From: Eledone cirrhosa
Taxonomy: Eukaryota
Direction: 5' to 3'
Length of the DNA stretch: 64,000 nucleotides
Assembly (NCBI GenBank): GCA_964016885.1
Contig: OZ024757.1
Coordinates: 34,224,001-34,288,000, forward strand
In this document: piece by piece, positions 1,010-64,000 of the stretch
Layout of the letters: every line of letters starts with the position of its first letter
Numbering within the stretch: position 1 is the stretch's first letter
Position numbers and translations under genes: made by a program
Notes under the pieces: model-generated
What the model was told of the DNA's origin: nothing
Databases searched by the model: none
What the model saw: the letters and a program-made list of their open reading frames with translations, nothing else

Positions 1010-36722
<35,713 letters not shown>

Positions 36723-46793: not shown

Positions 46794-49060
46794 CATATAT
46801 ATATTGTATTAATTGTATTCAGTGCAAATTGTTAATTTTTGAAAACTTATCTTGAATTAAATCGAATTTGTTTTTTATATTCTTTTGTTTCTTTTCTTTT
46901 GTATGTTGTTAAATATTGTTGTAAAAACTTGTTTTATTCATCTGAAATGAAAGTAAAACCAGAAGAGCCAAAGTTCCAGATATTTTCATTTAACGATCAT
47001 GGCTGGTTGTAAAATGTTACTACTATAGTGTGTGTCTAAAGTCTGTCTTAAGCCAGAACGCTCGTTAGGTTGGTGCTTATCCCAGTTTCATGGTGTGAAG
47101 CGACTGAGAGTACAAGACTTCCCCCTGGATAGAACGCCAGTCCATTGCAGGATTGAACCCCCAGCTATTGCTGGTACTCATTTTCAGCTGAGTATACTGG
47201 AGCAATGTGACATAAAGTGTTTTGCTAAAGAACACAACACACAACCTAAGTCAAGCAATCGAACCCACAACATTATGATTGTAAGTCTAACACACTTACC
47301 ATTAGGCTATATGCCTATATTGTGTACTTTAAAGAAATAGAGAAAGAGAAAGTGACGTCCAAACGAGTACCCTCCACATCTAGGTCTCGGTTGACAAGAT
47401 GGAGAATACGTTGCCCTGGAGAACAGCGAGATAGGAGACGCATGTTACAGCCACTCCACCTTGTGGGGCTCACACCTGTAAACGGTCAACTCCACTCTGA
47501 TAGCAATGAGTAGCAATGTGGTTCAGGGACCAAGAACGCTGGAAGTCTCCACTGCCATAGGCTCTAACACATAGTTTTAAGGCAACAATCATATTCACTG
47601 TTTGTCTCAAGTTATTACTGTGTTGCTACAAAACCATCTTACAACAATGTAATTCAGAAAATGTTTATATTTAGCTTCTATTTCTTCCCTAAAGTTTCAA
47701 AACTGGTGATGACTGAGTGCCTGCAATTGAATAAAATTCATATTGATACAACTAGTTCTGAGGCAACGAATTGACAGTCGTTAGAACATCTGATAGAATG
47801 CTTTGCAGTGTTCATTCCAGCACTCTGTACTCAGAATTCAAGATTTACCTAGGTCAACTTTACCTTTCATCAATACGAAGTCAACAAAAATGTACCAGAC
47901 CAGTACTGGGGTTGATTCTTCCTCTATATCTCTTTCTCATTTCCAAACTCTCTCTCTCACTCTTTTTCTCTTTCTCTACAAGAAATGGGCTGAGTTCCAA
48001 CCTGGAGACAGATGTGCTCAGCCAGGTTTAAAGTGGCCAAGACACTGTATATTACTACAGTTCTCCCTACTACACCACAAAGAGTTACACGTCAATACAT
48101 ACATCATCATCACTGATATACATGTGTATGTGTATTTGTGTGCAATGGAACTCTGTTGGTTTCGTTGATGAGTGTTCCAGTTGTTTGACCAACGAAACAG
48201 TCTGCTCATAAGACTAACGTGTAAGTGACTGAGCATTCCACAAACACGTGTACGCATAACAAAATTCTCAGGGAGATTCAGCGTTACGAGGCTGGCCTTT
48301 GAATTACAGGTACAGTCCATCCATTGCTCTTCTAGTTTCCGATTATCCAGTTTCACTCACAAGACATTGATCAACCCAAGGCTATGATAAATGACACTTG
48401 TCCAATTTGCCAAACAGTGGGATTGAACCTGGGACCTCATGATTGCGAAGAGAACTACTTAACCATTCGACCACGCTGTTTCCAAGAAGTTAAAAAAAAA
48501 TCTCTCGCAAAGAAATCTCAGAGATAAAAAACAAAGGGGGATAAGTCTAAATAACTTTTTAGATGTTCATTTCATAACAACCGAATCTACAGTAAACAAA
48601 TATGAATAGAAGCCTTATCTGAGACGCCAGTCAGCAATTCTTTTGCTCTTTTCCCTATCCTTGATGCTGCGGTAAAGGCGAGGGCCACGACATCCGTTGC
48701 TAAAAAATTTAAATGCTAGGAATGATTGGCAAAATATTTTTCCAGCCGGTGTGATTCGAGACGTTTGGGGGAGCTGTGCCGCTCACAACGAAGTTGGTCG
48801 CACGCCTTCCCGATGTATCAGGTGAAGGTGCTTGATTATTCTAGCGTCTTAGCTTCGCTTGCCCTACTATTAGAGGAAGGCTCCTGCGCCCCTTGTGGCG
48901 TGTGATATTTGTCTATTTTATTTATGTAAGAAAAATATGCTAAGTTATTATCTTAGCAACTAAATAATTAATTATACAGAAACTTACATTTTAAAGAACA
49001 AAATACATAAAAATAATTATAGAAAATAGTTAATTTATTTCATAACATCACAAAGTTTTA

Positions 49061-51235
49061 TTATAATAACTTTTTTAGTGTGGTAGAGAGTTCCTCGTAA
49101 ACCAATTTCTCTCTGGTAGAAAGTTCATCACAATCGTCATTTTCTGTGGCAGAAAGTTTCTCGCAAACATTTCTTTCCGGGGTAGATAATACCTTGCTGT
49201 CCGATACTTCAGCATGTTCTCCAGTGGTAGAAACTTTCTCACAAACATTTCTTTCCGGGGTAGATAATACCTTGCTGTCCGATACTTCAGCATGTTCTCC
49301 AGTGGTAGAAACTTTCTCACAAGCGTTTCTTTCCGGGGTAGATAATACCTTGCAGTCTGATACTTCAGCATGTTCTCCAGTGATAGAAACTTTCTCACAA
49401 ACGTTTCTTTCCGGGGTAGATAATACCTTGCTGTCCGATACTTCAGCATGTTCTCCAGTGGTAGAAACTTTCTCACAAGCGTTTCTTTCCGGGGTAGATA
49501 ATACCTTGCTGTCCGATACTTCAGCATGTTCTCCAGTGGTAGAAACTTTCTCATAAACGTTTCTTTCCGGGGTAGATAATACCTTGCTATCCGATACTTC
49601 AGCATGTTCTCCAGTGGTAGAAACTTTCTCACAAGCGTTTCTTTCCGGGTTAGATAATACCTTGCTGTCCGATACTTCAGCATGTTCTCCAGTGGTAGAA
49701 ACTTTCTCATAAACGTTTCTTTCCGGGGTAGATAATACCTTGCTGTCCGATACTTCAGCATGTTCTCCAGTGGTAGAAACTTTCTCACAAGCGTTTCTTT
49801 CCGGGGTAGATAATACCTTGCTGTCCGATACTTCAGCATGTTCTCCAGTGGTAGAAACTTTCTCACAAGCGTTTCTTTCCGGGGTAGATAATACCTTGCC
49901 GTCCGATACTTCAGCATGTTCTCCAGTGGTAGAAACTTTCTCACAAACGTTTCTTTCCGGGGTAGATAATACCTTGCAGTCTGATACTTCAGCATGTTCT
50001 CCAGTGGTAGAAACTTTCTCACAAGCGTTTCTTTCCGGGGTAGATAATACCTTGCAGTCCGATACTTCAGCATGTTCTCCAGTGGTAGAAACTTTCTCAC
50101 AAGCGTTTCTTTCCGGGGTAGATAATACCTTGCAGTCTGATACTTCAGCATGTTCTCCAGTGGTAGAAACTTTCTCACAAGCGTTTCTTTCCGGGGTAGA
50201 TAATACCTTGCTGTCCGATACTTCAGCATGTTCTCCAGTGATAGAAACTTTCTCACAAGCGTTTCTTTCCAGGGTAGATAATACCTTGCTGTCCGATACT
50301 TCAGCATGTTCTCCAGTGGTAGAAACTTTCTCACAAGCGTTTCTTTCCGGGGTAGATAATACCTTGCTGTCCGATACTTCAGCATGTTCTCCAGTGGTAG
50401 AAACTTTCTCACAAGCGTTTCTTTCCGGGGTAGATAATACCTTGCTGTCCGATACTTCAGCATGTTCTCCAGTGGTAGAAACTTTCTCACAAGCGTTTCT
50501 TTCCGGGGTAGATAATACCTTGCTGTCCGATACTTCAGCATGTTCTCCAGTGGTAGAAACTTTCTCACAAGCGTTTCTTTCCGGGGTAGATAATACCTTG
50601 CTGTCAACGGATTTTTCCGGTATAGGGAATTCTTTGGAACCTTTTCTTCCGGCGGTGCTAAGTTCCTCGCCAGAATTTTCTTCAATTGTAGAAAGTTTAT
50701 CGCACGGGGTTTTATCCATGCTAAAAAAATCCTCTTCGCAAAAGTTTTTTTTTGTGGGAGAAAGTTCATTTCCAATGCTTTGTTCACGTGTAGAAAATTT
50801 CTCGCCAGAATTATTTTCACTAGTAGAACATTTTTCATCGCAAGAGTTTTGTTCACTGGTACAACATTCTTCCTCGCAAACGGTATCTTTCGTAGAAAGT
50901 TCCTTACAAATTTTGTAAATCCTAATTGCAGAATTTAAATTCAATTTTCTTTCTTTTTCACATTTTTGTAAAGTATGTTTTTGACGAATTTTGTGTATTT
51001 TACACTCCATATCGTAAATGTCGTTAAGAGAATTATAGATTTTACGTGCTGAAGGCGAATTATTTAATAATTCAATGTCCGTTCGCAATGGTGCTGTTTT
51101 TTCGAGTAAGAGCTTATTTTTATCCACAAGTTCTTGTTTCTGTTGGCGCAATCGCCCGTGAACATGAAGTAATATATTTAATTTACGCCGATAAGTTTGT
51201 ATTTCTGAAGAAATTTTCGAATTCTTCAGTTCCAT
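49061..51235 (-). CDS. Intronless orphan ORF (724 aa): basic coiled-coil-like N-terminus plus 26-aa tandem repeats
   Basis: ATG at 51235 in good context (ACAATGG); ~210 codons upstream of the homogeneous array stay open; AATAAA overlaps the stop and recurs at 49034-49039 on the - strand. No recognisable homolog. Confidence 0.6.
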   Translation of the reverse strand: MELKNSKISSEIQTYRRKLNILLHVHGRLRQQKQELVDKNKLLLEKTAPLRTDIELLNNSPSARKIYNSLNDIYDMECKIHKIRQKHTLQKCEKERKLNLNSAIRIYKICKELSTKDTVCEEECCTSEQNSCDEKCSTSENNSGEKFSTREQSIGNELSPTKKNFCEEDFFSMDKTPCDKLSTIEENSGEELSTAGRKGSKEFPIPEKSVDSKVLSTPERNACEKVSTTGEHAEVSDSKVLSTPERNACEKVSTTGEHAEVSDSKVLSTPERNACEKVSTTGEHAEVSDSKVLSTPERNACEKVSTTGEHAEVSDSKVLSTLERNACEKVSITGEHAEVSDSKVLSTPERNACEKVSTTGEHAEVSDCKVLSTPERNACEKVSTTGEHAEVSDCKVLSTPERNACEKVSTTGEHAEVSDCKVLSTPERNVCEKVSTTGEHAEVSDGKVLSTPERNACEKVSTTGEHAEVSDSKVLSTPERNACEKVSTTGEHAEVSDSKVLSTPERNVYEKVSTTGEHAEVSDSKVLSNPERNACEKVSTTGEHAEVSDSKVLSTPERNVYEKVSTTGEHAEVSDSKVLSTPERNACEKVSTTGEHAEVSDSKVLSTPERNVCEKVSITGEHAEVSDCKVLSTPERNACEKVSTTGEHAEVSDSKVLSTPERNVCEKVSTTGEHAEVSDSKVLSTPERNVCEKLSATENDDCDELSTREKLVYEELSTTLKKLL
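49160..50605 (-). repeat. 78-bp coding minisatellite, ~18.5 units (DSKVLSTPERNACEKVSTTGEHAEVS)
   Basis: ggtagataataccttg recurs every 78 nt (49181, 49259, ...). Confidence 0.97.
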
Positions 51236-52079
51236 TGTTCCAAAATGATACAAGTCTAGGAAAAATCAATTACAGATGTTCGTGTGGATTAGTAATGGCA
51301 CTTGTCGTGTTAGATCAATCCACGAACTATAAATTAAAGTAGGTTATATGTGAGTGGTGACTCGCGATCGTAAGGTTGTGAGTTCGATTGACGGCGGCGT
51401 GTGATGTGCTTGAGCAAAGCACTTTATTTCACGTTGCTCCAGTTCCACTCAAGAAGAAAAAACGAGCTGGGCTTGTAATTCAAAGGATCAGACTTTGTAA
51501 CCCACTGTGTCACACTGAATCTCCCTGAGAATTACGTTAAGGGTGCAAGTGTTCGTGGAACACTCACCCACTTTTGCACGTTAATTTCACAAGGCTGTTC
51601 CGTTGCTCGAACAAATGGAACACTCGACGTCGAAACCGATGCAGGTCCAACAGTAAGAAAGAAACAAGATCGAATAAAGTAAAATAGTTTAGAGTTCAGA
51701 AGAGTAAGTCAGTCCATAACGTTTAGGGCCTTGTCCTTCGTTACATGGCAGAGGAAAGAAAAGCGTGAGGGAAAAATCGAAAGCAGGGAGAGATCTGACA
51801 ACAAAGTGTGTATGTACAACTGTGTTGTGGTGAGAGATAATCTGTGTTTCGGGGTAATGTTTAATTTTCGATAAAGGGGATAATTGTGAAATTTTATCTC
51901 ACCTTATAGGTATTTCATAAGACAGAATCAGAGAAGAAACCCCACTTAATCAAGTGCTTTGGCCCTTAGGAAATAAATATATATCTAATATATTTATATA
52001 AATAAATACATGAATTTTGTATTTATTTGAGGTATTTCAAATATTTTATATAAATCGTAGTGTGTTATGGAATAACCCG

Positions 52080-52240
52080 AAAAAAGATTTAAACATTTCT
52101 TCTCAATACAGAAAATTGTTTACGGAAGTGGGTCTTTTTCATGATCTCCTTTTCTAGAGAGCTCTTAATGGAGGTTTCAACAGTTTTCTGAAATTAACTC
52201 TCAGTATATTTTAAAGACTAAAGCATTATTTGTGCGGTAA
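52080..52240 (+). promoter_or_regulatory. Putative BORCS5 promoter / non-coding first exon
   Basis: ETS-type CGGAAGTG at 52123-52130 and G|GTAAGG donor at 52237, in a CpG-retaining zone; the coding exon at 54578 has an acceptor, so an upstream exon is required. Confidence 0.35.
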
Positions 52241-54584
52241 GGCTTGGCTTCTTACTTCTAATAATATTAATGAAACTGTTTTTATTCATTTAAATTCTTA
52301 TTTGAGATTTATTTACTGCAAATATTGTCTATCATTCATTCTATTCCTCGTTTATTTATGACGACGCAAATCTATCTTCGTCTCATTTAATTTACTTTCA
52401 TATTTTATGAAATGTTTAAATAATCAGCAAATGTAGTTGGTTATGAAGGATATTTTACTGTGAGAGATATTTTGGTTCCGTAATTTTTATGTAAAAAAAT
52501 AATAAGTTTGATCATAATCTGTGTCATTGCATATTTGAACACGTAAACACAGGAATAAAACAGACAAATGTAGGAAGAACGAACAAAAATTGGTGTTTCT
52601 AATTTTCTCCACTGAATGTTATTATTCTTCTTTAAATTATTTATCCGTCACCAATCATTCTTAAATTGTGAAAATCCCTGATATTGTCTGTATTATCGAA
52701 CTCAAGATGTCCGCACCCCCTTTTTTTTCCATATACATTTACCGATTTTCGGTAAAACTGTTCCCTAAATTTCAGTATTGATAGCTTGCCTTACGGATGT
52801 ATCGGGTGATGCCCGCGAAGATGCTTGGCTATTTCAATGCCTTAGACTCGCTATCACCCCTGACGATGCTGCGAGCGTGTTGGCTTGCCTCAAAAATTAT
52901 TAGAGGGGCAACTCCTTCGCTTCTTCATGAGGCCTATGATTGAATGCGTAGATCTCTTGGGTCGGACGCCATGCTTTGACGCATAGAGTTACGGCCCTTG
53001 CCATTCTGAGTTCAAATCCCGTCGAGTTTAACTTTGCCTTTCATCCTTACGGGGTCGATAAAATAAAGTACTAATAATACACTGGGATAATTGCTGGCCT
53101 TGTGCCAAAAGTAGAAACAGTTATTATATAAGGGAGGTGGTTTGGCAGTATCGGTAGAGGGTCGGATGCCATGCTTTGCAGCATAGTTACGGCCCTTTAC
53201 AATCTGAGTTCAAATCCCGCCGAGGTTAACTTTGCCTTTCATCCTTACAGGGTTGATAAAGTAAAGCACCAGTAATGCACTGGAGGTAATTGCTGGCCTT
53301 GTGCTCAAAGTAAAAACAATTATTAGAGTGTCGGACGCCATGCTTCGTGGCATGTAGTTACGTCCCTTTACGTTCCGAGTTCAAATCCCGCCGAGGGATC
53401 GATAAAATAAAGTACCATTAAAGCACTGGAGTCGATTTAATCGACTTGCCCATCCCCAAAAATTGTTCAGCTTATACCTAAATTAGAAACAACTATTATT
53501 ATTGTATAAATTGCGTTTGTATGTATAATTACGTATAATAAATTAATCAAGACTACGTTACAATTTCGAACAGTGACATCGCTCTAAGTTTTGTAAGCAG
53601 TGTTGTCGTATGATTTATGTTCTGTGACAATGAACCCTTTAGCATTTACATTACTCTATATTTACTATTGTATTTCCATGATAAACACTTTATTTCACAT
53701 AATTATCTCGTACAATACCAAAGCTATGAGAGTTTGATATTATTTATCTTTAGAAGAATACCGTATGAGAGGCCGATTACAACCAGTTTGAACAGAAAGA
53801 GGTGAGGGAATTCTCGCCGGATACAGCCGGTTTAAATGCTAAAGGGTTAAAATGGTATATATATATATCCCCACCCTCAAATCAGTTTCTCCTTTTACAG
53901 GCTTCAATACAATAACTGTTATTTAGCTTCATGGTTCAATAAGACAAATAACTAAATCTGTAGCCATACTAAGCCTCAGAAAGTGAATGGCCTAGTTGTT
54001 TGGTTGTTGCTTCAATTCTTGGACTGGGCAACATTTTGTGATCTTGAGCAAGAGACCACATTTCACATTGTACTGGAGGTTGATTCTTCCTCACTTCCTC
54101 TTTATCACTTTTTCTCTCTTTCTCTCTCCTGCTCTGGAAGAAATCAGCTGTGTCCAAATCTGGAGAGAGAGATGAGCTCTGCCAGGTTCTGCCCTGATTG
54201 TATGAAAGAAAACCACCTTTTCCAAACAATTTCTATATAAATTTATATCTTCCAACACAATATTATACAAGAACCCTATTTTAAGTTATATTAGGAATGA
54301 AATAATAATTTGAGTAAATACTTCAAAATTCTGCATTTTCATTATAAATACTGTCACGAAAAGGTTAAATGCCCAAAACACGCTGTATGTCACTGTGGCA
54401 CCCCCATAACTCCACCAAGAGTTACAGACACCATATATATAAAATGATGATGATGATGATGATGGAGAGAGAGAGAGCATGGCATATCCCATCTTGTGAA
54501 TCACTGATGATATGTAAATTGTATTTATTATGTAATTTCATTATTTTTAAAATTATTTTTATCTCTCTGATTTTTAGAAACTGG

Positions 54585-54699
54585 ATGGGCTCTGAACAAA
54601 GCAGTCTTCCTGCAGGGGCCCCAGGCAGCAGTCTGCGATCCCAGCGTGATGAAGACATACCATATACAACATACTCAATAAGCAAACCTATTGATGGAG
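54585..54699 (+). CDS. BORCS5: BORCS5/myrlysin first coding exon (MGSEQSSLPAG...KPIDG)
   Basis: tttttag acceptor at 54577; myristoylation-type MGSEQS start identical to vertebrate BORCS5; phase-1 donor gtaatg. Confidence 0.88.
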
Positions 54700-56534
54700 G
54701 TAATGCAATTTTTTTTTTATTATTGTTTAATTTTTAGGGCAGTGGATTGGCAGTATCGGTAGAGCGTCAGACACCATGCTTTGCAGCATAGAGTTACGGC
54801 CCGTCTGAGTTCAAATCCTGCCGAGGTTAGCTTTGCCTTTCATCCTTATGGGGTTGATAAAATAAAGCACCAGTAATGCACTGGGGTCGATTTAATCGAC
54901 TTTCCCCCTCCCCTTCAAAGTAGAAATCATTATTGTTGTAATTTTTCTTTTTTAATATTGTTTGATTTCCATTTTATTTTATCTTCTGACCATGTCTCAA
55001 GCAGAGACCTGAGGCATGTATACATTAGATGGAGTTAAACTTCCTGAGAAGGTGAGCGGTTGATGTCAGCACAATTTTTTTGATCTTCGTAGATTGTTGG
55101 TTTCCCTGGGATCTGGTCAAAGAATTTGTCACTACCTTTCTTGATCATTCCTGGGCACCCACAAGAACAGGGATGATTTTGGTTTTTAATTGCCACATCC
55201 TAGATATCTCAATCTTAAGGTCCTTGTATTTAGATAGTTTCTCAAATTATTTTGCTGACATGTTTCTATCACTAAGCACCATCATATCAATTATTATTAT
55301 TATTATCATTATGTAAGTGCGATGCAGATCCAATCCCCTCGGCTTGTCAGGGAGGTTAGTAGCCCCTTTTCAGTATGGACTTGTTGGCAAGGAAAGTAGA
55401 CATTAAGTGATGATGATGGTGTTATTAACATAGAAGGTATCCCATACCCTAAACTGCTGGCCTTATGCCTAAATTAGAAATTTTATGTTGGGAGAAGAAA
55501 GATTTGTTTTCAGGTGGGTTTTCTATGCTTTTTTAATTCATTATTATTTTTACGCCATGCTTTCCAGCATAGTTACGTCCCTTTACGATCTGAGTTCAAA
55601 TCCCGCCGAGGTTGACTTTGCCTTTCATCCTTACGGGGTTGATAAAATAAAGTACCAGCAATGCACTGGGTAATTGCTGGCCTTGTGCCTAAATATTGAA
55701 ATAAAGCACCAGTAATGCGCTGGGGTCAATTTAATCGACTTTCCTCTCCACCAACCAGCTTAAGAAATGTGATGCGTTTTATAAATAATTCAGTGTTTTT
55801 ATTATAAAACCTGTTGTAATGCTGCCTTTCTTAATAGAGAAAAGGTTTGGTAGGTAAAAATGGAATGAGAGTTGGTTTAGATGCTTCCAAGTTACTTTGT
55901 GAATCTCCTCTCTATTGGGGCAATAAAAGAAATACCATAATACCAGTGATATACTGTGTTGAATAAAGAATCATATGCCACCCCTCTTTACATGAGATAG
56001 CTGGGTGGGACTTTTGTGACTAGCCAAACTATCTTCTAGTATGATTATTATATTGCTTAGTGGTTAGAACATTCGCCTTGCAATCAGAAGGTTTTTGAAT
56101 TCAATTCTCAGACCGGGTGATGAGTTGTATCCTTGAGCAAGACACTAAATATTTCACATTGTTCCAGTTCACTCAACTGTAGAAATGAGTTGCAACATCA
56201 CTGGTGCCAAGCTATATTGGCCATTGCTTTTCCCTTGGACATCATCGGTGGCATGGAGAGGGGAGACAGGTATGCTTGGCCGACTGCTGGTCTTCCACAA
56301 ACAACCTTGTTTGAACTTGAGCCTCGGAGGGAAACTTTCTAGGTGCAACTCCTATGGTTATTCATGACCAAAGGGGGTTTTTACAGTACCTTACATCTTT
56401 CCCTAAGAATTTATGTGAGTCACTTGGTTTAGATTGAAACATATTTTTTTTTATTAAACCCAACAAACAATCAGTTATAGAATTAATTTCATTATATCTG
56501 TAAAATGTATGTGTATTGGTGAATATTTTTTCAG

Positions 56535-56567
56535 TTCAAAAATCTCCTAGTTCTAGTGAAGTTGAAG
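56535..56567 (+). CDS. BORCS5: Candidate BORCS5 33-nt microexon (VQKSPSSSEVE)
   Basis: ttttttcag / G|gtaagc, symmetric phase 1-1, stop-free in the BORCS5 frame. Confidence 0.5.
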
Positions 56568-58313
56568 GTAAGCAAATATATTCAGACATTGGTACCAAAA
56601 AAATGTTTTTTTCAAATCCCTTTTGGATTGAATTTTAATCTTTTAATCTCCCTCGGCTGTGAATGTCTTGGAGTAGATAATTGAAGTAGTTCTCTCTGCT
56701 TTGGAACTCTCTTACAATCTCTCTCTCTCTCTCTCTCTCTGTCATATATATATATATGAATTCAAAACAAAGGGGTGCACAGACTAAGACATTGGAAAAT
56801 TCAGATGGGACTGTCCGTTTTTCCATTGTTTTTCCATTGTCTTTGTCCAGTGCACCTCCTTGCTTTGAATATGTATATATATATATATAAATAAATAAAT
56901 AAATAAAATCTACCTATCTCTTTCTCCTATTCTCTATCTATCTCATCCTCATTAGCATTATCTCTTACTCTACTGTAGATTCAGAACTTCTCTCTATAGC
57001 CTCTCTCAGCCTTGTTAAACCCTAAATCCACCAATATACCATTTCTCTCTTTACTCTATGACTGATATAACTTCTCTCTAGAGCCTCTTGCAGTCTTGTC
57101 CAACCCTAGACCCTACCAATAAATTATATCTCTCTACTCCATGAAAACCCTATAAGTGATACTATATACAACTATAAACCTACTATATAATACTTTAGTC
57201 TTAGAGTTTTTTCAGCAAAACTTTCTTTAAACCTCTTAGCATGTTCCTCTATTGGTAATATGGTTCTTTACACTCTACTAAAGCATTACCTTCAAAAGAT
57301 TTCCTATTCCTGTTTTGAACTGGAAGTTACTAACTACTAACTCTACTAATTTTTATTTTGCTATTTGAATGACTATTTATAAAATAATTTTAAATGATTG
57401 AAATCCCAAACAATACATATAAAAAAATTAAACATGTTTTATTCATAAATTTATCAATTTTGGTAGACTCATCAGTAAATATAAAATCTGTTTTGTTTTT
57501 TCAAGCCAAAAACCTTTTAGTGTTGGTTAATAGTTGAAGATTTATGATATCTTTATTCATCTTCATCTTTGCCTTCTTATTCCTGAGAAGGTCTTGGGGC
57601 CTGCAGAGTCCTCAGACATGGCTTCCCAGGGGTCCTATCAGAAGCAACTATCTTCAAATAATCCAGCAGGATCTCATGGTTGGAATCTCTAATGGAAAGA
57701 ATTCACCGGACAGATTTTACAGACAAATCCAACCGACAAGAGACCCAGAGGTAGACCACGAAGAAGATGGTTGGATTTTTGTTGAGGTTGACCAAGGTGG
57801 TTGGATTTTTGTTCAGGTTTATGATAATTGAGCTTCTATATGAACTATTTAGTACTTTAACAAAGTTCATACCAACCTACTACCTGTATTAAAATGTTAC
57901 TATTTAAGATGAAACTTTCCACCAACCAGCTTAGGAGATACCATGTATTTTATAAATAACTCAGTGTTTTTACTATAAAACCTGTTGTAATGCTGTAATG
58001 CTGCCTTTCTTAATAGAGAAATGGTTTGTGGGTAAAAATGGAATGAGAGTTGGTTTAGATGCTTCCAAGTTACTTTGTGAATCTCCTCTCTATTGGGGCA
58101 AGAAAAGAAATACCATAATACCAGTGATATACTGTGTTGAATAAAGAATCATATGCCACCCCTCTTTACAAAAAAATATAGAGGGGTGGAGTGTGGGTAT
58201 GAGATAGCTGGGTGGGTCTTTTATGACTAGCCAAACTATCTTCTAGTATGATTATTGCAATTTATTACCTTACATCTTTCACTAAGAATTTAGGTGAGAC
58301 CCTTGGTTTAGAT

Positions 58314-58650
58314 CAGAGGTTCTCAAAGTTGGTGCTGCCGCCCACCAGGGGGTGTTGAAAAGGTCCAGGGAGTCACTGAGGCCTAAGGGGGCAGTAAAGA
58401 TCATATAATAGTATATTAGATATCAAATGATACATATTACATATAAATATAGTAAAATAAAAATATATAATATTTATTTATACATAGTATACATTATATT
58501 ATTCATTACATATAAATTAATGATTTTATTTATTATATATTATTTATAATTTGCGTGTAGGCAGGTCTCTCTGGAAATAGGGGTGGGTATGGCTGAGAGT
58601 ATTACGTGGCCTTGAGGGGGTCGGTGGCCCAAAAAGTTTGAGAACCTCTG
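58314..58650. mobile_element. hAT (Charlie-like) MITE with 8-bp TSD
   Basis: TIR CAGAGGTTCTCAAA; GTTTAGAT on both sides; empty site in the paralogous copy at ~56427. Confidence 0.9.
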
Positions 58651-58758
58651 GTTTAGATTGAAACATTATACTGTTTATTAAACCCAACAAACAATCAGTT
58701 ATAGAATTAATTTAATCATATCTGTAAAATGTATGTGTATTGGTAAATATTTTTTCAG

Positions 58759-58788
58759 TTCCAAAATCTAGTTCTAGTGAAGTTGAAG
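58759..58788 (+). CDS. BORCS5: Candidate duplicated BORCS5 30-nt microexon (VPKSSSSEVE)
   Basis: Paralog of 56535-56567 with a 3-nt indel; tttttcag / G|gtaaac. Confidence 0.4.
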
Positions 58789-59822
58789 GTAAACATTGGT
58801 ACCAAAAAAAAAATGTTTTTTACAGATCCCTTTTAGATTGAATTTTATCTTTTAATCTTCCTTGTCTGTGAATGTATTGGAGTAGTTCTCTCTGCTTTGG
58901 AACTATCTTACAATCTCTCTTCTATATGTATATATAGTTTTTAAAAAATGCCCACATGGGTATGTCTTTCGAATATGAATTCAAGACAAGAGTGGTACAT
59001 ATGACTAAGGCATTGGGAAAATCAGAGATGTGATTGTCTGTTTTTCCTTTGTACCTCCTTGCTTTGAATATATATATATATATATATATCTGCCTCTCTC
59101 ATTCTCCCATTCTTTATCTATCTCATCCTCATTAGTATTAACTCTTACTCTACTGTAGATTCAAAACTTCTCTCTATAGCCCCTCTAAGTCTTGTTAAAC
59201 CCTAAACCCTACCAATACACCATTTCTCTTTCTACTCGATGGTGATATAACTGCTCTATAGAGTCTCTGTTTTGTTAAACCCTAAATTCTACCAATATAC
59301 CATTTATCTTTACTCCATGACTGTTACAAACCCCTATAAGTGATGCTATATAGTACTATAGTCTTACTATATAATACTTTAGTCTTAGTTTTTCAGCAAA
59401 ACTTTCTTTAAGCCTCTTAGCATGTTCCTCTATTGGTAATATGGTTCTTTACACTCTACTACAGCATTACCTTCAAAAGATTTCCTATTCCTGTTTTGAA
59501 CTGGAAGTTACTAACTACTAACTCTACTAATTTTAATTTTGACACTTGAATGAGTATTTATAAAATAATTTTAAATGATTGAAAGCCCCAAAAATGCATA
59601 TAAAAAAAAATTAAACATGTTTTATTCATAAATTTCTCTGTCTTAGACTCATCAGTAAATTTAAAATCTATTTTTTTTTCAAGCCCAGAACCTTTTAGCA
59701 TTTGTTAATGATTGAAGTTTGAACAAGCAGAGGCTTTAGTAGAAGTCATCCTAAAAGCTGTTAGAAGTTGAAGGAATAGATTATAAATTTTAGGTTATAT
59801 TTTATTTGTCCTCTTCTTGTAG

Positions 59823-60022
59823 TTGAGCTGATAGCAATGGAAACTTATGGTATTCTTGGCCACCAGACCACACCACTACTCACTGCTGTCAGAGCGGAGT
59901 TAGCTGCCTGCATGTGTCAGTCCCACAAGGTGGAGTGGCTGTTCCCGTACATCTCCCACGCCGTTCTCCGGGGCAATATCTTCCCCTTCCAGAACCATGA
60001 GGTGGACAACATATTAGGGTAG
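59823..60022 (+). mobile_element. CRE-like non-LTR restriction-like endonuclease C-terminal fragment
   Basis: ELIAMETYGILG...EWLF..ISHAVLRGN; homologous copy at 47395-47570 (-). Confidence 0.55.
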
Positions 60023-62937
60023 TAGTAGTAGGGTGGCAGTTTTCAGACGAAAGGGTTAATAGTGCTGACACTCAATATACTGTCAACTGTTGAGAATTAT
60101 GTCTGGTGCTTTCTTATAAAAGTGTTTCCTTATGATTTTTTACCAGTTTAAATATAAGATTTGTTTTGATTTTTTCACACCAGAAACCTTTTAGCGCTGG
60201 TTAATGATAAGTCTGAAAAAACAATCTTTAGCTCTTTAGCATTTACAATACTCTATATATGTATTTTTGCGGTAAAGGCTTTACCTCACATAATATCAAG
60301 TCTATTAGATTTTGATATTTATTTTGAGAACAATACCTTAACCTTATGAGTGGCCAGTTATGGCTAGTTTAGACAAAAAGAAGTGAGAGAATTCTGGCCG
60401 GATACAGCCAGGTTAAATGCTAATGGTTTAATTGTAGTCATCCTAAAAGCTGTTAGAATTTGAAGGAACAGATTTTAGATGTTAGGGTTTTGACTGTTAA
60501 CCAAAGCTAAAAAGTTCCTGACATGAAAAAATAAAACAGATTTTATATTCACCGATGAGAGACTCTGAAGACTGAAAATTTCAATAATAAAATACTACGT
60601 TTTAATTCTTTATATGCATTGTTTGGGCCTGCAATCATTTAAAATTATTATATTGTCACAGTGCTTTCAAAAACTGCCTTCAAGCTCATTTTATATATTT
60701 ATAAAATGTTATTGAATAATTGTATTGAATGCAAATTCTGTCGATGCTAAAAATCATATTTGATTATTTTTTGTAATCCCTCCAAAAACCCTGTATAATA
60801 TAACATGTTACAGTAATCTTATTTTGGGAATTGTAATTTTGAATTAATTATTAAGATTCTATTAATTTAATAATTAAATATATATTTTTGTTGTTGCTGT
60901 TGCTTTTTGTTTAGAAATATGATAAAACCAAATAAAAACATTTGAAGTTTTTCCCTCCCCACTCCACTAACTACATGTTTAACCCTTTAACATTTAAACC
61001 AGATGTATCCAGCCAGAATTCTCTCACCCCTTTCTTTTCAAACCGGCTGTAACCGTCTAACCCATGCTAGCGTGGAAGATGGATGTTAAACGATGATGAT
61101 GATGATAATATATCATCATCATCGGCATATATAAATATATATACATACACACACACATATTGTAATCATCATTTCTGTTTATCGTCAATTCTTCGATGCT
61201 TGCATGGGTTAGATGGGTTGTCCATACCGGGAGGTAAGTCTGGCTATGGCTGGCCATGTCTCACCTTGCTCTGACGAGGACTATAAATTTGGCAGGGTAT
61301 TTTACAGCTGGATTTATATATATATGCAAAAAGTAAACAGAAATAACAAAGCAAACGACACAGTAAAACAAAGAAATATATTAGTTTAACACTTGAGGCA
61401 GTAAGAAAAGAGTCTTAATGTTTCGGACACTAGTCCTTCATCAGACAATAGAATGAGAAATAGAAAGATAGTCAGCTATTTTAGAGAAAAAAATATGTAT
61501 AGTGATGTATATAAAGTAAAGACTGTACTATATATAGTAGTATATATATAAGATAGATACTGTATTATATATAAAGTGATTGTACTATATATAATAATGT
61601 ACTTGTATGTAGTATAGAGCTTGTACTATATATAGTGATAATATATACAAGTTTAATACTTGTGATATATCTATAGGATATATATCAACTAGTGATATAT
61701 ATATATATAGGATTGCATGCATGGTCCCGTAACTCCTGATGGAGTCATAGGAGCACCATAATGGCGTTTCTAGAGCATTTTAAGTTTAGCGGAGCCCATT
61801 CCTCTGCAGAGAAGGAATGAAATTTAGAAAGATATACAGAGGAATAATTGACCCCAGTACTAAACTGTTACTTTTTTATTGACCTCAAAAAGATAAAAGG
61901 CAAAGTTGACCTTGGCTGGATTTGAGCTCAGAGAGCAGAAAACCGGATGAATATCACAAAGTATTATATATGGGATAGAATGTCAACTAAATATACTGTA
62001 TTGTCTTTCCCTAGAATAACATCACATATAGTGTGTATATGAGTTACAGTGATACAGGTGCCAAGCTTTCCCTTTCCCTTAGATGATATCGGTGGGGCGT
62101 AGAGAGAGCATGTGTAATTTGTGGAAATGGGGAGGGCTAAATTGGCCACGGAACTTAAATTGCAACCTCAACTTACTACTAATACCACTGGTATGACTAC
62201 AACTGCTTCTACTATTACTACTGCTAATAATAATAATAATACCACTGGTACTACTAATACTGCTGGTACGACTACTGCTGCTTGTACTACTAAATTTATC
62301 AAGTTTCATTGAAGGTATTTTTTATAACTTGTTATTAATTAGAAATTGCTAGTGTGTGTATATATATATATGTACAGTATTATTAATAATAATACTTAGC
62401 TATGTCCAATGTGTATTTTTTCTTATGTTTACTATATTGTCGTAGTGTAAGTATTAGTTTGATTATACATATGGACACATTTGTAAGGTATTAAATGATT
62501 TAAGAAATTTATTCTATCTTCACAATTTGTTATATATGTATTTATATATTTCTTTCTTCTGGTCGGTTTTGTAACAGGTTGAGGGTTCATCTGGGCAGGT
62601 TGCTGGCTCTCCACAGAACAGTCGGATGGTGGGGCTGCCATCTTGGTGGCTAGCCAGCACTCTGCGAATCACCATTGGTTTGGAACCTACCTGAGAGACC
62701 GGCTCACCTAGAATGGTCCTACAAGGAGCAAAGCTCCAGACGGCAATGCTCTCTTGGATTTACAGAACACACAAGGCCAGACCCAAGAGTGCTACACACA
62801 CACACACATAACAAAGAGGGTGTGGTAAGATACCAGGTGAACCATAATACACCAGAGTACTCAATACTTAGGGTAGTAGAGTGGGTAATAGGAAAAGAGT
62901 CAGGACTCTTTTCCTATATATATATACACTCACACAC

Positions 62938-63490
62938 ATTAGAAGCTGTAGACAGCTTCTGCTACCTAGGTGACTAAATAAGCAGCAGAGGTGGGTGTTC
63001 TGAAAGTACAGTAGCCAGAGTGAGAATGGGATGGACGAAGTTCAGAGAGCTACTACCACGGCTAGCTTCAAAAGGCTTTTCCCTCAAAATGAAAGGCAGA
63101 TTGTATGGTGCATGTATACGAGCAGCAATGTTGTCTGGTAGTGAGGCCTGGGTGCTGTGTGCAGAGAACTTACGAAGATTGGAAAGAAATGGAGCTTGCA
63201 TGCTTCATTGGATGTGTAATAGCAATATATGTGAACAGCAAAGCATAAACGAACTGAGAGAGAACCTAGGCATGAGAGGAATTAGATGCAGTGTGCAGGA
63301 GAGGAGATTGCATTGGTATGGACATGTGATACATATGAAGGATGGATGACTGCTGTATAAAAAGGTGCAGAATGGAAGCTATGAAGTAGGAAGACTTGGG
63401 ATGAGGTGATAAAAGCTTGCACTGAAAGGTGATGACACAGGACCAGGATTTCTGGCGTTATGCAGTAATAGAGAAGACCCGCTTTCCCAT
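62938..63490 (+). mobile_element. RTE LINE fragment (same family as 40985-41972)
   Basis: EAVDSFCYLG, GSEAW, RRLHWYGHV; stops present. Confidence 0.85.
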
Positions 63491-63707
63491 GAGCACAGAA
63501 CACTAGAAAGAATTATTTTGAAATTTTTAAAACCATTTCCCATTGGAATCACTTTAGAATGCATCTTTTTAATTTTATTTTTGATTTTTATTATTTTTTT
63601 CTGTTTCAATTTCTTTTCTATTTTTATTTTTTATTACATTTTTTTATATATATTTTTCTTTTTCATTTCATTTATATTTTCGTATTTTTATTTTATTTCA
63701 ATTTTAG

Positions 63708-64000
63708 AGTCGCCACGGTCTTCACCGCGATCTCTCAACCGACAACGACACATTCACAGAGGGGAACGTCAGAGCACACCAAAACATGACATTGTAATAG
63801 TGGCAGAGGGCGGGCCTTTGCAGAAGGATCCCGACCCTGAACAGACCAAACTGAATGCCATCCCTGTCTTTCAACCAGTGATCAAGAAATCCATTAATGG
63901 GGGCCGAGGAGAAATGGAATACATAGACAAATTAGACCACCGCCAGGTGCTGTTGCTCTGTTTACGGTACCAGCAGCACTTGAAGCAGTTGTCAGAAGCT
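63708..64000 (+). CDS. BORCS5: BORCS5 coding exon, runs off the window (..HDIVIVAEG..DPEQTKLNAIPVFQPVIK..KLDHRQVLLLCLRYQQHLKQLSEA)
   Basis: attttag acceptor, phase 1; close match to BORCS5 DIVVVAQG / IPTFQPLLK / KLDSQQVLQLCLRYQDHL. Confidence 0.92.

What the first reader, a model, noticed from the sequence alone, without database searches (positions are those of the whole stretch)
49061..51235. Orphan intronless gene with a coiled-coil-like head and 17 CDK-consensus sites in tandem repeats
About 105 aa of basic/Leu-rich heptad-like sequence is followed by acidic Ser/Thr/Cys repeats. T-P-E-R, the full S/T-P-x-K/R CDK motif, is present in 17 of 19 units. A good start context, a polyA signal next to the stop and a head-to-head position near the putative BORCS5 promoter all suggest a real lineage-specific gene. 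Inference: a multisite phospho-regulated disordered scaffold.
Basis: partly seen in the sequence, partly recalled or inferred. Interest (0 to 1): 0.75.

Follow-up and report, generated by a model that had tools for sequence, protein, structure and literature searches.

The report
Orphan octopod zipper with copied phosphosites
An octopus-group genome holds a single-copy 724-residue reading frame with no detected relatives, made of a leucine zipper and an acidic tail in which one 26-residue unit was recently copied 19 times; it is likely a real gene with a likely phosphorylated tail, but its 17 cell-cycle-kinase sites are copies of one site, not 17 separate signs of function.

Summary
In detail: a 724-aa ORF at 49061-51235 (-), 19 units of 26 aa, T-P-E-R in 17. 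New here: residues 22-57 form a six-leucine, GCN4-type zipper (8 of 50,000 shuffles). The tail is built from an older 11-12-aa repeat whose copies are mostly 58-71% alike in DNA yet all in frame and stop-free. That argues for a long-lived coding gene. But the array is young (2.6% mean divergence, 8 of 18 units identical, 7 replacement to 3 silent variants), so the 17 CDK sites are one site amplified. The older shared motif is S-T-x-E (CK2-like). Each TPER follows Ser, giving the polo-box core S-T-P, without the Phe of high-affinity motifs. No relative was found in 1.84 billion cluster representatives or in two searches of a set that holds Octopus and Argonauta proteins. CCDC113 and IKK leads were not supported. 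Expression is untested. Verdict: probably a real lineage-restricted gene of a familiar kind (coiled coil plus phospho-repeat tail); 'CDK-regulated scaffold' is plausible but unproven.

The parts
49061..51235 (-). Main ORF, 724 aa, 79 kDa, net charge -38; head (aa 1-111) pI 9.9, tail pI 4.8
51065..51214 (-). Leucine zipper aa 8-57: d positions I8 Y15 L22 L29 L36 L43 L50 L57, Asn40 at an a position; predicted single helix aa 7-65
   Evidence: run of 6 Leu in 8 of 50,000 shuffles; (best PDB match, E 0.15, is the NEMO construct 6mi4/6mi3, with the best stretch in segments I recall as GCN4-type adaptors)
50873..51037 (-). Two further predicted helices, aa 67-104 and 106-121, after an N-N-S-P hinge
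   Evidence: single-sequence AlphaFold2, mean pLDDT 75, pTM 0.38
50600..50902 (-). Nine old, degenerate 11-12-aa repeats ([E/K]-[L/F/C]-S-T-x-E core), aa 112-212
49163..50599 (-). Recent 78-bp minisatellite: 18 whole units plus a partial 19th, each made of two old units (11 + 15 aa); S-T-P-E-R in 17 of 19
49064..49162 (-). Three more old degenerate units, to the C-terminus
49034..49062 (-). Two AATAAA signals (one overlapping the stop), followed by T-rich DNA
49075..50838 (-). Overlapping +1-frame ORF, 587 aa, strongly basic (K+R 146, D+E 41); frame open for codons 101-719
51255..51290 (-). Weak candidate splice acceptor 20 nt upstream of the ATG (branch-like TACTAAT, short pyrimidine tract)
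   Evidence: 0.8 bits, below 27 of 27 real acceptors; short matrix 4.5 bits, above 3 of 27
51346..51620 (+). High-copy interspersed repeat (SINE-like, by recall) 110 bp upstream of the ATG
   Evidence: summed contig depth up to 4e5 against 6-18 beside it
48501..54000 (.). CpG-undepleted block (o/e 0.70-1.46 in 11 of 11 bins) between depleted flanks (mostly 0.1-0.6)
54578..64000 (+). BORCS5, divergent neighbour (ATG 54585; candidate non-coding exon 1 ending 53592)
13199..36719 (+). Phospholipase D exons, convergent neighbour
   Evidence: PF00614, PF13091

Best explanation
This is a single-copy 724-codon reading frame, likely a real octopod-restricted gene, whose product is predicted to dimerise through an N-terminal leucine zipper and to trail a disordered acidic repeat tail that likely serves as a multisite phosphate acceptor. 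Shown: the zipper pattern, the old in-frame repeats, the young 19-fold array, and the motifs (17 S-T-P-E-R, 49 S/T-x-x-D/E). Inferred, step by step: (1) the gene is transcribed in a restricted tissue, since its body is CpG-undepleted like unmethylated, variably expressed octopus genes; (2) the zipper forms a parallel dimer (Leu at d, Asn at a, by recall of GCN4) and the basic head anchors it; (3) CK2-type kinases load the ancestral S-T-x-E sites and a proline-directed kinase (CDK, MAPK or CDK5) the one S-T-P site; (4) recent unequal crossing-over multiplied that unit, so a phosphorylated dimer would show up to 34 low-affinity polo-box core sites. The number 17 is most likely a by-product of minisatellite turnover, not a selected threshold.
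For: Old repeats: 17 of 17 internal alignments have offsets divisible by 3 at 58-90% DNA identity; 14 aligned cores diverged 27% from their consensus carry no stop, against 3.8 expected, P 0.021. The main frame stays open in 0 of 5,000 resamplings that keep only the +1 protein, so it is not a shadow of the other frame. Zipper: 8 of 50,000 shuffles; long helices predicted. Head open in 0 of 20,000 base shuffles. Strong start context and two AATAAA. Single copy as protein and DNA. In the 168 non-duplicated tail residues: 2 full CDK sites against 0.16 (p 0.008) and S-T-x-E 5 against 0.36. PBD core S-pT-P primed by CDK1: PMC12183085 (sections 6 and 8 part 1, passages). Unmethylated bodies mark silent or variably expressed octopus genes: PMC9476566 (passages).
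Against: No orthologue, although Octopus sinensis, O. vulgaris, O. bimaculoides and Argonauta proteins are in the database and a control exon matched them at 92-94%. Repeats 27% diverged suggest an old gene, so the absence needs fast evolution or missing annotation. No amino-acid constraint was detected: pN/pS 0.75 against 0.85 +/- 0.19 neutral in old cores (p 0.32); 7 replacement to 3 silent variants in the array, two of which destroy TPER. Only 2 of 14 old cores have a full CDK site. The motif shuffles overstate significance because the 168 residues are related repeats; the 17 alignments are not independent, and one holds a compensated 1-nt shift. 30 of 6,442 stop-free stretches in the window reach 111 codons. 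The array has no Phe, so the high-affinity polo-box motif (PMC13161223, abstract and passages) is not met.
Confidence: 0.45

Rival explanations
1. A real gene whose tail is only an acidic, disordered spacer or CK2-loaded polyanion; the proline-directed site is an accident carried along by the minisatellite and has no regulatory role.
For: Ancestral motif is S-T-x-E, not S/T-P; a shuffled unit has a full CDK site in 3.5%; array variants look neutral and two units lost the site.
Against: Two different old units (SPTK, TPER) carry the full consensus, more than shuffles give (p 0.008); exposed S-T-P-x-R in a disordered chain is generally a good substrate (own knowledge).
Confidence: 0.27
2. A formerly coding or never-expressed frame: a silent relic kept open by chance, with the array a non-coding minisatellite.
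For: No orthologue; no amino-acid constraint; 3 of 6 frames of the unit are open anyway.
Against: 212 codons outside the array plus 33 tail codons are open and in frame; old repeats decayed without a net frameshift or stop; zipper pattern; start and polyA signals.
Confidence: 0.13
3. A diverged copy (retrocopy or last exon) of a known gene, most plausibly the IKK scaffold/dimerisation domain, acting as a kinase-less decoy.
For: Top PDB match of the head is IKK-beta aa 528-587, E 0.094, across the helix-SP-helix hinge. A first alignment to the genome's own IKK exons gave p 0.054 in a similar register. Earlier scan notes report several intron-free, likely retroposed genes in this genome (unchecked).
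Against: With the own IKK domain spliced correctly p rose to 0.25, equal in score to the reversed head; 5 of 5 intronless arthropod-type IKKs p 0.45-0.79; profile score 0.7 bits, rank 357 of 969; hhalign probability 0.1; DNA p 0.39. The test is weak: own IKK against those true homologues also gave p 0.12-0.31. No kinase motif upstream on the minus strand.
Confidence: 0.1
4. Dual-coding gene like MUC1/MUC1-ARF or XLalphas/ALEX: the +1 frame makes a basic 587-aa repeat protein that would pair with the acidic main product.
For: The +1 frame is open for codons 101-719, through the old repeats: P 0.013 by codon resampling, and open in 492 of 20,000 neutral runs; it has its own ATG at 50838.
Against: 8 of the 15 at-risk codon pairs are the same inherited Leu-Ser pair, which brings P to roughly 0.1 (my estimate); the upstream ATG has the stronger context; a basic +1 frame is expected from Glu/Lys-rich DNA.
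Confidence: 0.05

Closest known systems
Ki-67 repeat domain (PMC9106583; passages)
   Same: Disordered tandem repeats with CDK1 consensus sites; phosphorylation and repeat number tune behaviour
   Different: Ki-67 repeat 12 alone holds six CDK1 sites, and phosphorylation builds alternating charge blocks; here one site per 26-aa acidic unit, no homology, copies nearly identical and young
Neurofilament heavy chain KSP tail (recalled, no call)
   Same: Coiled-coil part followed by a long tail of proline-directed phospho-repeats of variable number
   Different: No intermediate-filament rod (no Pfam hit); zipper only about 50 aa; motif is S-T-P-E-R
CDK-primed PLK1 receptors BUB1, BUBR1, CENP-U, Pon (PMC12183085 sections 6 and 8 part 1; PMC13161223 abstract and passages)
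   Same: S-T-P core; neighbouring S-T-X dyad 11 residues away in each unit
   Different: Those carry one or two sites with a Phe for the cryptic pocket; this array has 17 cores and no Phe, so only micromolar pincer binding would be expected
GCN4-type leucine zipper / bZIP
   Same: Six Leu at d, Asn at a; best PDB match of aa 1-65 in a NEMO construct
   Different: No N-x7-R basic region in any register (recalled definition); no bZIP Pfam hit
MUC1 / MUC1-ARF (PMC5074479 abstract) and XLalphas/ALEX (PMC1186735 listing)
   Same: Tandem-repeat coding region open in two frames, with a downstream ATG
   Different: Translation of the second frame is shown there and untested here; no signal peptide or membrane helix seen here

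Membership tests
CCDC113/CCDC96 (PF13870) | Match to the family coiled-coil profile | tested here: not met
   67-sequence CCDC113 profile, best domain 1.1 bits, below many shuffles; hhalign probability 0.3; true members lie on C8 and C10. No CCDC96-specific profile was built.
IKK (IKK-alpha/beta) | Kinase domain upstream in the same gene | tested here: not met
   No kinase motif on the minus strand over about 32 kb upstream; the genome's IKK is on C1
IKK (IKK-alpha/beta) | Homology to the scaffold/dimerisation domain | tested here: inconclusive
   E 0.094 to human IKK-beta; not significant against own and arthropod-type IKKs, but true homologues also fail this test; PF18397 missed even the real octopod IKK
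bZIP transcription factor | Leucine heptad repeat | tested here: met
   L22-L57, six heptads
bZIP transcription factor | Invariant Asn and Arg 18 and 10 residues before a zipper Leu (recalled) | tested here: not met
   Registers on L22, L29, L36 give K4/I12, E11/L19, K18/H26 (sequence); no Pfam bZIP hit
CDK substrate | Full consensus S/T-P-x-K/R in a disordered region | tested here: met
   18 sites; tail about 12-22% large hydrophobic residues per 60-aa block
CDK substrate | Phosphorylation in vivo and conservation of the sites | not testable with these tools
   No orthologue and no proteomic data
PLK1 polo-box ligand | S-T-P core | tested here: met
   17 sites
PLK1 master docking motif | Phe about 7 residues before pT for the cryptic pocket | tested here: not met
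   Position -7 is Ser and the array has no Phe; definition from PMC13161223 passages
Transposon or viral ORF | Multiple genomic copies or a TE/viral domain | tested here: not met
   1 match each for head protein, head DNA and the array locus (searches give lower bounds); no such Pfam domain above cut-off in the head

The most novel reading that the evidence does not exclude
A young minisatellite has turned a lineage-specific zipper protein into a copy-number-tunable phospho-brush: after CDK priming, a dimer would offer 34 polo-box docking sites and act as a Polo-kinase sink or mitotic/meiotic timer whose strength is set by a variable repeat number, possibly with a basic partner read from the overlapping frame.
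Probability: 0.1. Interest if true: 0.7.

Novelty: new member of a known kind. Interest (0 to 1): 0.3.

Why it matters
If expressed, it is a clean natural case of how a repeat expansion multiplies one kinase site into a multisite array, and it allows a test of whether site number is selected or drifts (compare individuals and species). As it stands it is one of many orphan repeat genes, with no known partner, tissue or phenotype.

Tried and rejected
Homologue searches: 0 of 307 candidates (398-1267 aa); 0 of 100 (187-2000 aa); proteins under 187 aa were covered only. That search (1.84 billion representatives) gave 1 hit, P0002, a 1959-aa repeat protein from a JGI contig, matched over 32 residues and judged chance. 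Pfam: only sub-cut-off WhiA_N and Sec8_N in the head, and repeat-inflated scores with 0 passing stretches elsewhere. Foldseek on PDB: 16 rows, all E above 5; VIA-align best Z 7.8, generic helical hairpins. The ESM Atlas gave no search. Resemblances by eye to CCDC96, CCDC113, BORCS5, C/EBP, shugoshin and CtIP zippers: CCDC113 was tested and failed; the others are recalled, untested and generic. Last-exon idea: acceptor at 51255 is weak; a phase-compatible 64-nt candidate exon at 52187-52124 exists but has no support. Sequencing runs: no RNA holder listed, which says nothing on expression. Contigs of X1 and X2 match 50610-51438 without a difference (these may be the assembly's own sample), and a contig of X4 bridges the candidate acceptor with no joint. 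X4's kind is not on record; its small size suggests RNA, but that is my inference. Homodimer fold of aa 1-115: no answer, score 0.00, no verdict. IKK hunt: patterns gave chance hits or nothing, loci L023, L024 and L027-L036 were irrelevant, and one script timed out. One search used misplaced anchors for some units; its divergence and stop figures were replaced. Papers: 0 hold both 'BORCS5' and 'octopus'; the listings showed no description of this gene. No supplements were read; octopus expression or proteome tables there could bear on expression. Scan notes: none near, by sequence or in relatives.

Full report
Setting. The window lies at C18:34,224,001-34,288,000 of a 3.0-Gb genome. A CCDC113 exon from this genome is 92-94% identical to Octopus and Argonauta proteins, so the animal is an octopod. 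The ORF sits between a phospholipase D gene (+ strand, ending near 36,719) and BORCS5 (+ strand, ATG 54,585; PF10158): tail-to-tail with the first, head-to-head with the second.

Observation. The ORF is 724 aa. It has 19 units of 26 aa, with TPER in 17 of 19, and one more full CDK consensus (SPTK, aa 159) outside the array. The ATG has A at -3 and G at +4, and AATAAA occurs at the stop and 23 nt later (background 1.7 per kb). The BORCS5 ATG is 3.35 kb away and its best candidate first-exon donor 2.36 kb away, with a high-copy repeat at 51,346-51,620 in between. All of this lies in one CpG-undepleted block, 48.5-54.0 kb. In O. bimaculoides, unmethylated gene bodies mark silent or variably expressed genes (PMC9476566, passages), so a restricted or low expression is inferred.

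Head. Leu occurs at 22, 29, 36, 43, 50 and 57, with Ile8 and Tyr15 in register and Asn40 at an a position; a run of six appeared in 8 of 50,000 shuffles. A Fourier test of hydrophobic periodicity was not significant (p 0.13). Single-sequence AlphaFold2 gives helices 7-65, 67-104 and 106-121. The best PDB match of aa 1-65 is a NEMO construct (6mi4, E 0.15), with the best stretch in segments I recall as GCN4-type adaptors. The bZIP Asn/Arg pair (recalled) is absent in every register. A parallel dimer is inferred from the pattern only.

Tail history. Residues 112-724 derive from an 11-12-aa repeat. In a self-comparison with the young copies removed, 17 of 17 alignments have offsets divisible by 3 at 58-90% identity, mostly 58-71%; they overlap each other and one holds a compensated 1-nt shift. 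Fourteen 9-codon cores differ 27% from their consensus without a stop, where neutral decay gives 3.8 stops (P 0.021). Amino acids are not detectably conserved (pN/pS 0.75 against 0.85 +/- 0.19, p 0.32). So the frame was kept while residues drifted, as expected for a disordered tail. One pair of old units was then amplified: mean difference 2.6%, 8 of 18 whole units identical, 10 variant types of which 7 change the residue, 3 are silent and none is a stop. The array and the head are found only here (lower bounds).

What the 17 sites mean. They are one site copied. A shuffled unit contains a full CDK site in 3.5% of trials. Among the non-duplicated 168 residues there are 2 such sites against 0.16 expected (p 0.008), and S-T-x-E occurs 5 times against 0.36; both figures overstate, since the residues are related repeats. 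The ancestral motif is thus S-T-x-E, a CK2-like context (recalled); the whole protein has 49 S/T-x-x-D/E. Every TPER follows Ser, giving 17 S-T-P cores, the CDK1-primed polo-box motif (PMC12183085, sections 6 and 8 part 1). High-affinity motifs add a Phe for the cryptic pocket, and pincer-only binding is micromolar (PMC13161223, abstract and passages); the array has no Phe. Ki-67 shows that repeat number and CDK1 phosphorylation can tune a disordered repeat protein (PMC9106583, passages); that is an analogy, not homology.

Intronless or last exon. A branch-like element and AG lie 20 nt before the ATG. Against 27 acceptors from PLD, BORCS5 and IKK exons of this genome it scores 0.8 bits, below all 27 in leave-one-out; a shorter matrix puts it above 3 of 27. 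A single coding exon is the better reading; a 5' intron is not excluded.

Relatives. None passed: 0 of 307 and 0 of 100 candidates and one chance hit among 1.84 billion, though four octopod proteomes are in the collection. CCDC113 failed by profile. The one lead is IKK-beta's scaffold domain (E 0.094). I located the genome's IKK on C1 and five intronless IKKs in metagenome contigs (5 of 73 loci used, chosen as full-length and distinct). A first alignment gave p 0.054; with correct splicing p was 0.25, and the profile rank was 357 of 969, hhalign 0.1. True IKK homologues also fail this test (p 0.12-0.31), so the lead is unsupported rather than excluded.

Second frame. The +1 frame is open for codons 101-719 and has an ATG giving a basic 587-aa product. 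The naive P is 0.013, and neutral runs leave it open about as rarely as the main frame (492 and 380 of 20,000). But 8 of 15 at-risk pairs are one inherited dyad. The reverse test leaves the main frame open in 0 of 5,000. MUC1-ARF is the known parallel (PMC5074479, abstract). I give dual coding 5%.

Mechanism and verdict. Shown: zipper pattern, frame-preserving old repeats, young array, motifs, single copy. Inferred: expression, dimerisation, phosphorylation, polo-box docking. Most likely a real octopod-restricted gene of a familiar design, a coiled coil with a phospho-repeat tail (about 0.8 that it is a gene; 0.45 for the full reading). No description was found, nor in scan notes. Interest 0.3.

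Noticed in passing
G000:C1:290,905,000-290,990,000 (-), loci L037-L057: The only canonical IKK found has a strongly diverged, shortened scaffold domain that PF18397 does not detect and that does not align significantly with five other IKKs; a TBK1-like exon lies at C4:21,445,354.
   Followed up: partly
window 48605-48860 and about 52777-52900 (+): Two old fragments of the same repeat (65% alike over 75 nt; 41 matches listed in the genome) flank the locus in direct orientation; they look like 3' ends of a LINE (recalled motif). Probably coincidence.
   Followed up: partly
window 55744-57500 and 57915-59700: A local tandem duplication inside a BORCS5 intron (75-85% identity).
   Followed up: no
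window 57560-57790 (+): An exon-like acidic, Pro/Ser-rich stretch within BORCS5 that may be a lineage-specific or alternative exon.
   Followed up: no
window 19981-22306 (+): Two long open stretches within the PLD gene (213 and 193 codons) may encode a large insert in the catalytic loop region.
   Followed up: no
window 51802: Run X4 shows C>T against the assembly in one contig at depth 6; allele or error.
   Followed up: no
window 49163-50599: 3 of the 10 variant types in the array are C>T or G>A at CpG sites although the block is CpG-undepleted.
   Followed up: no
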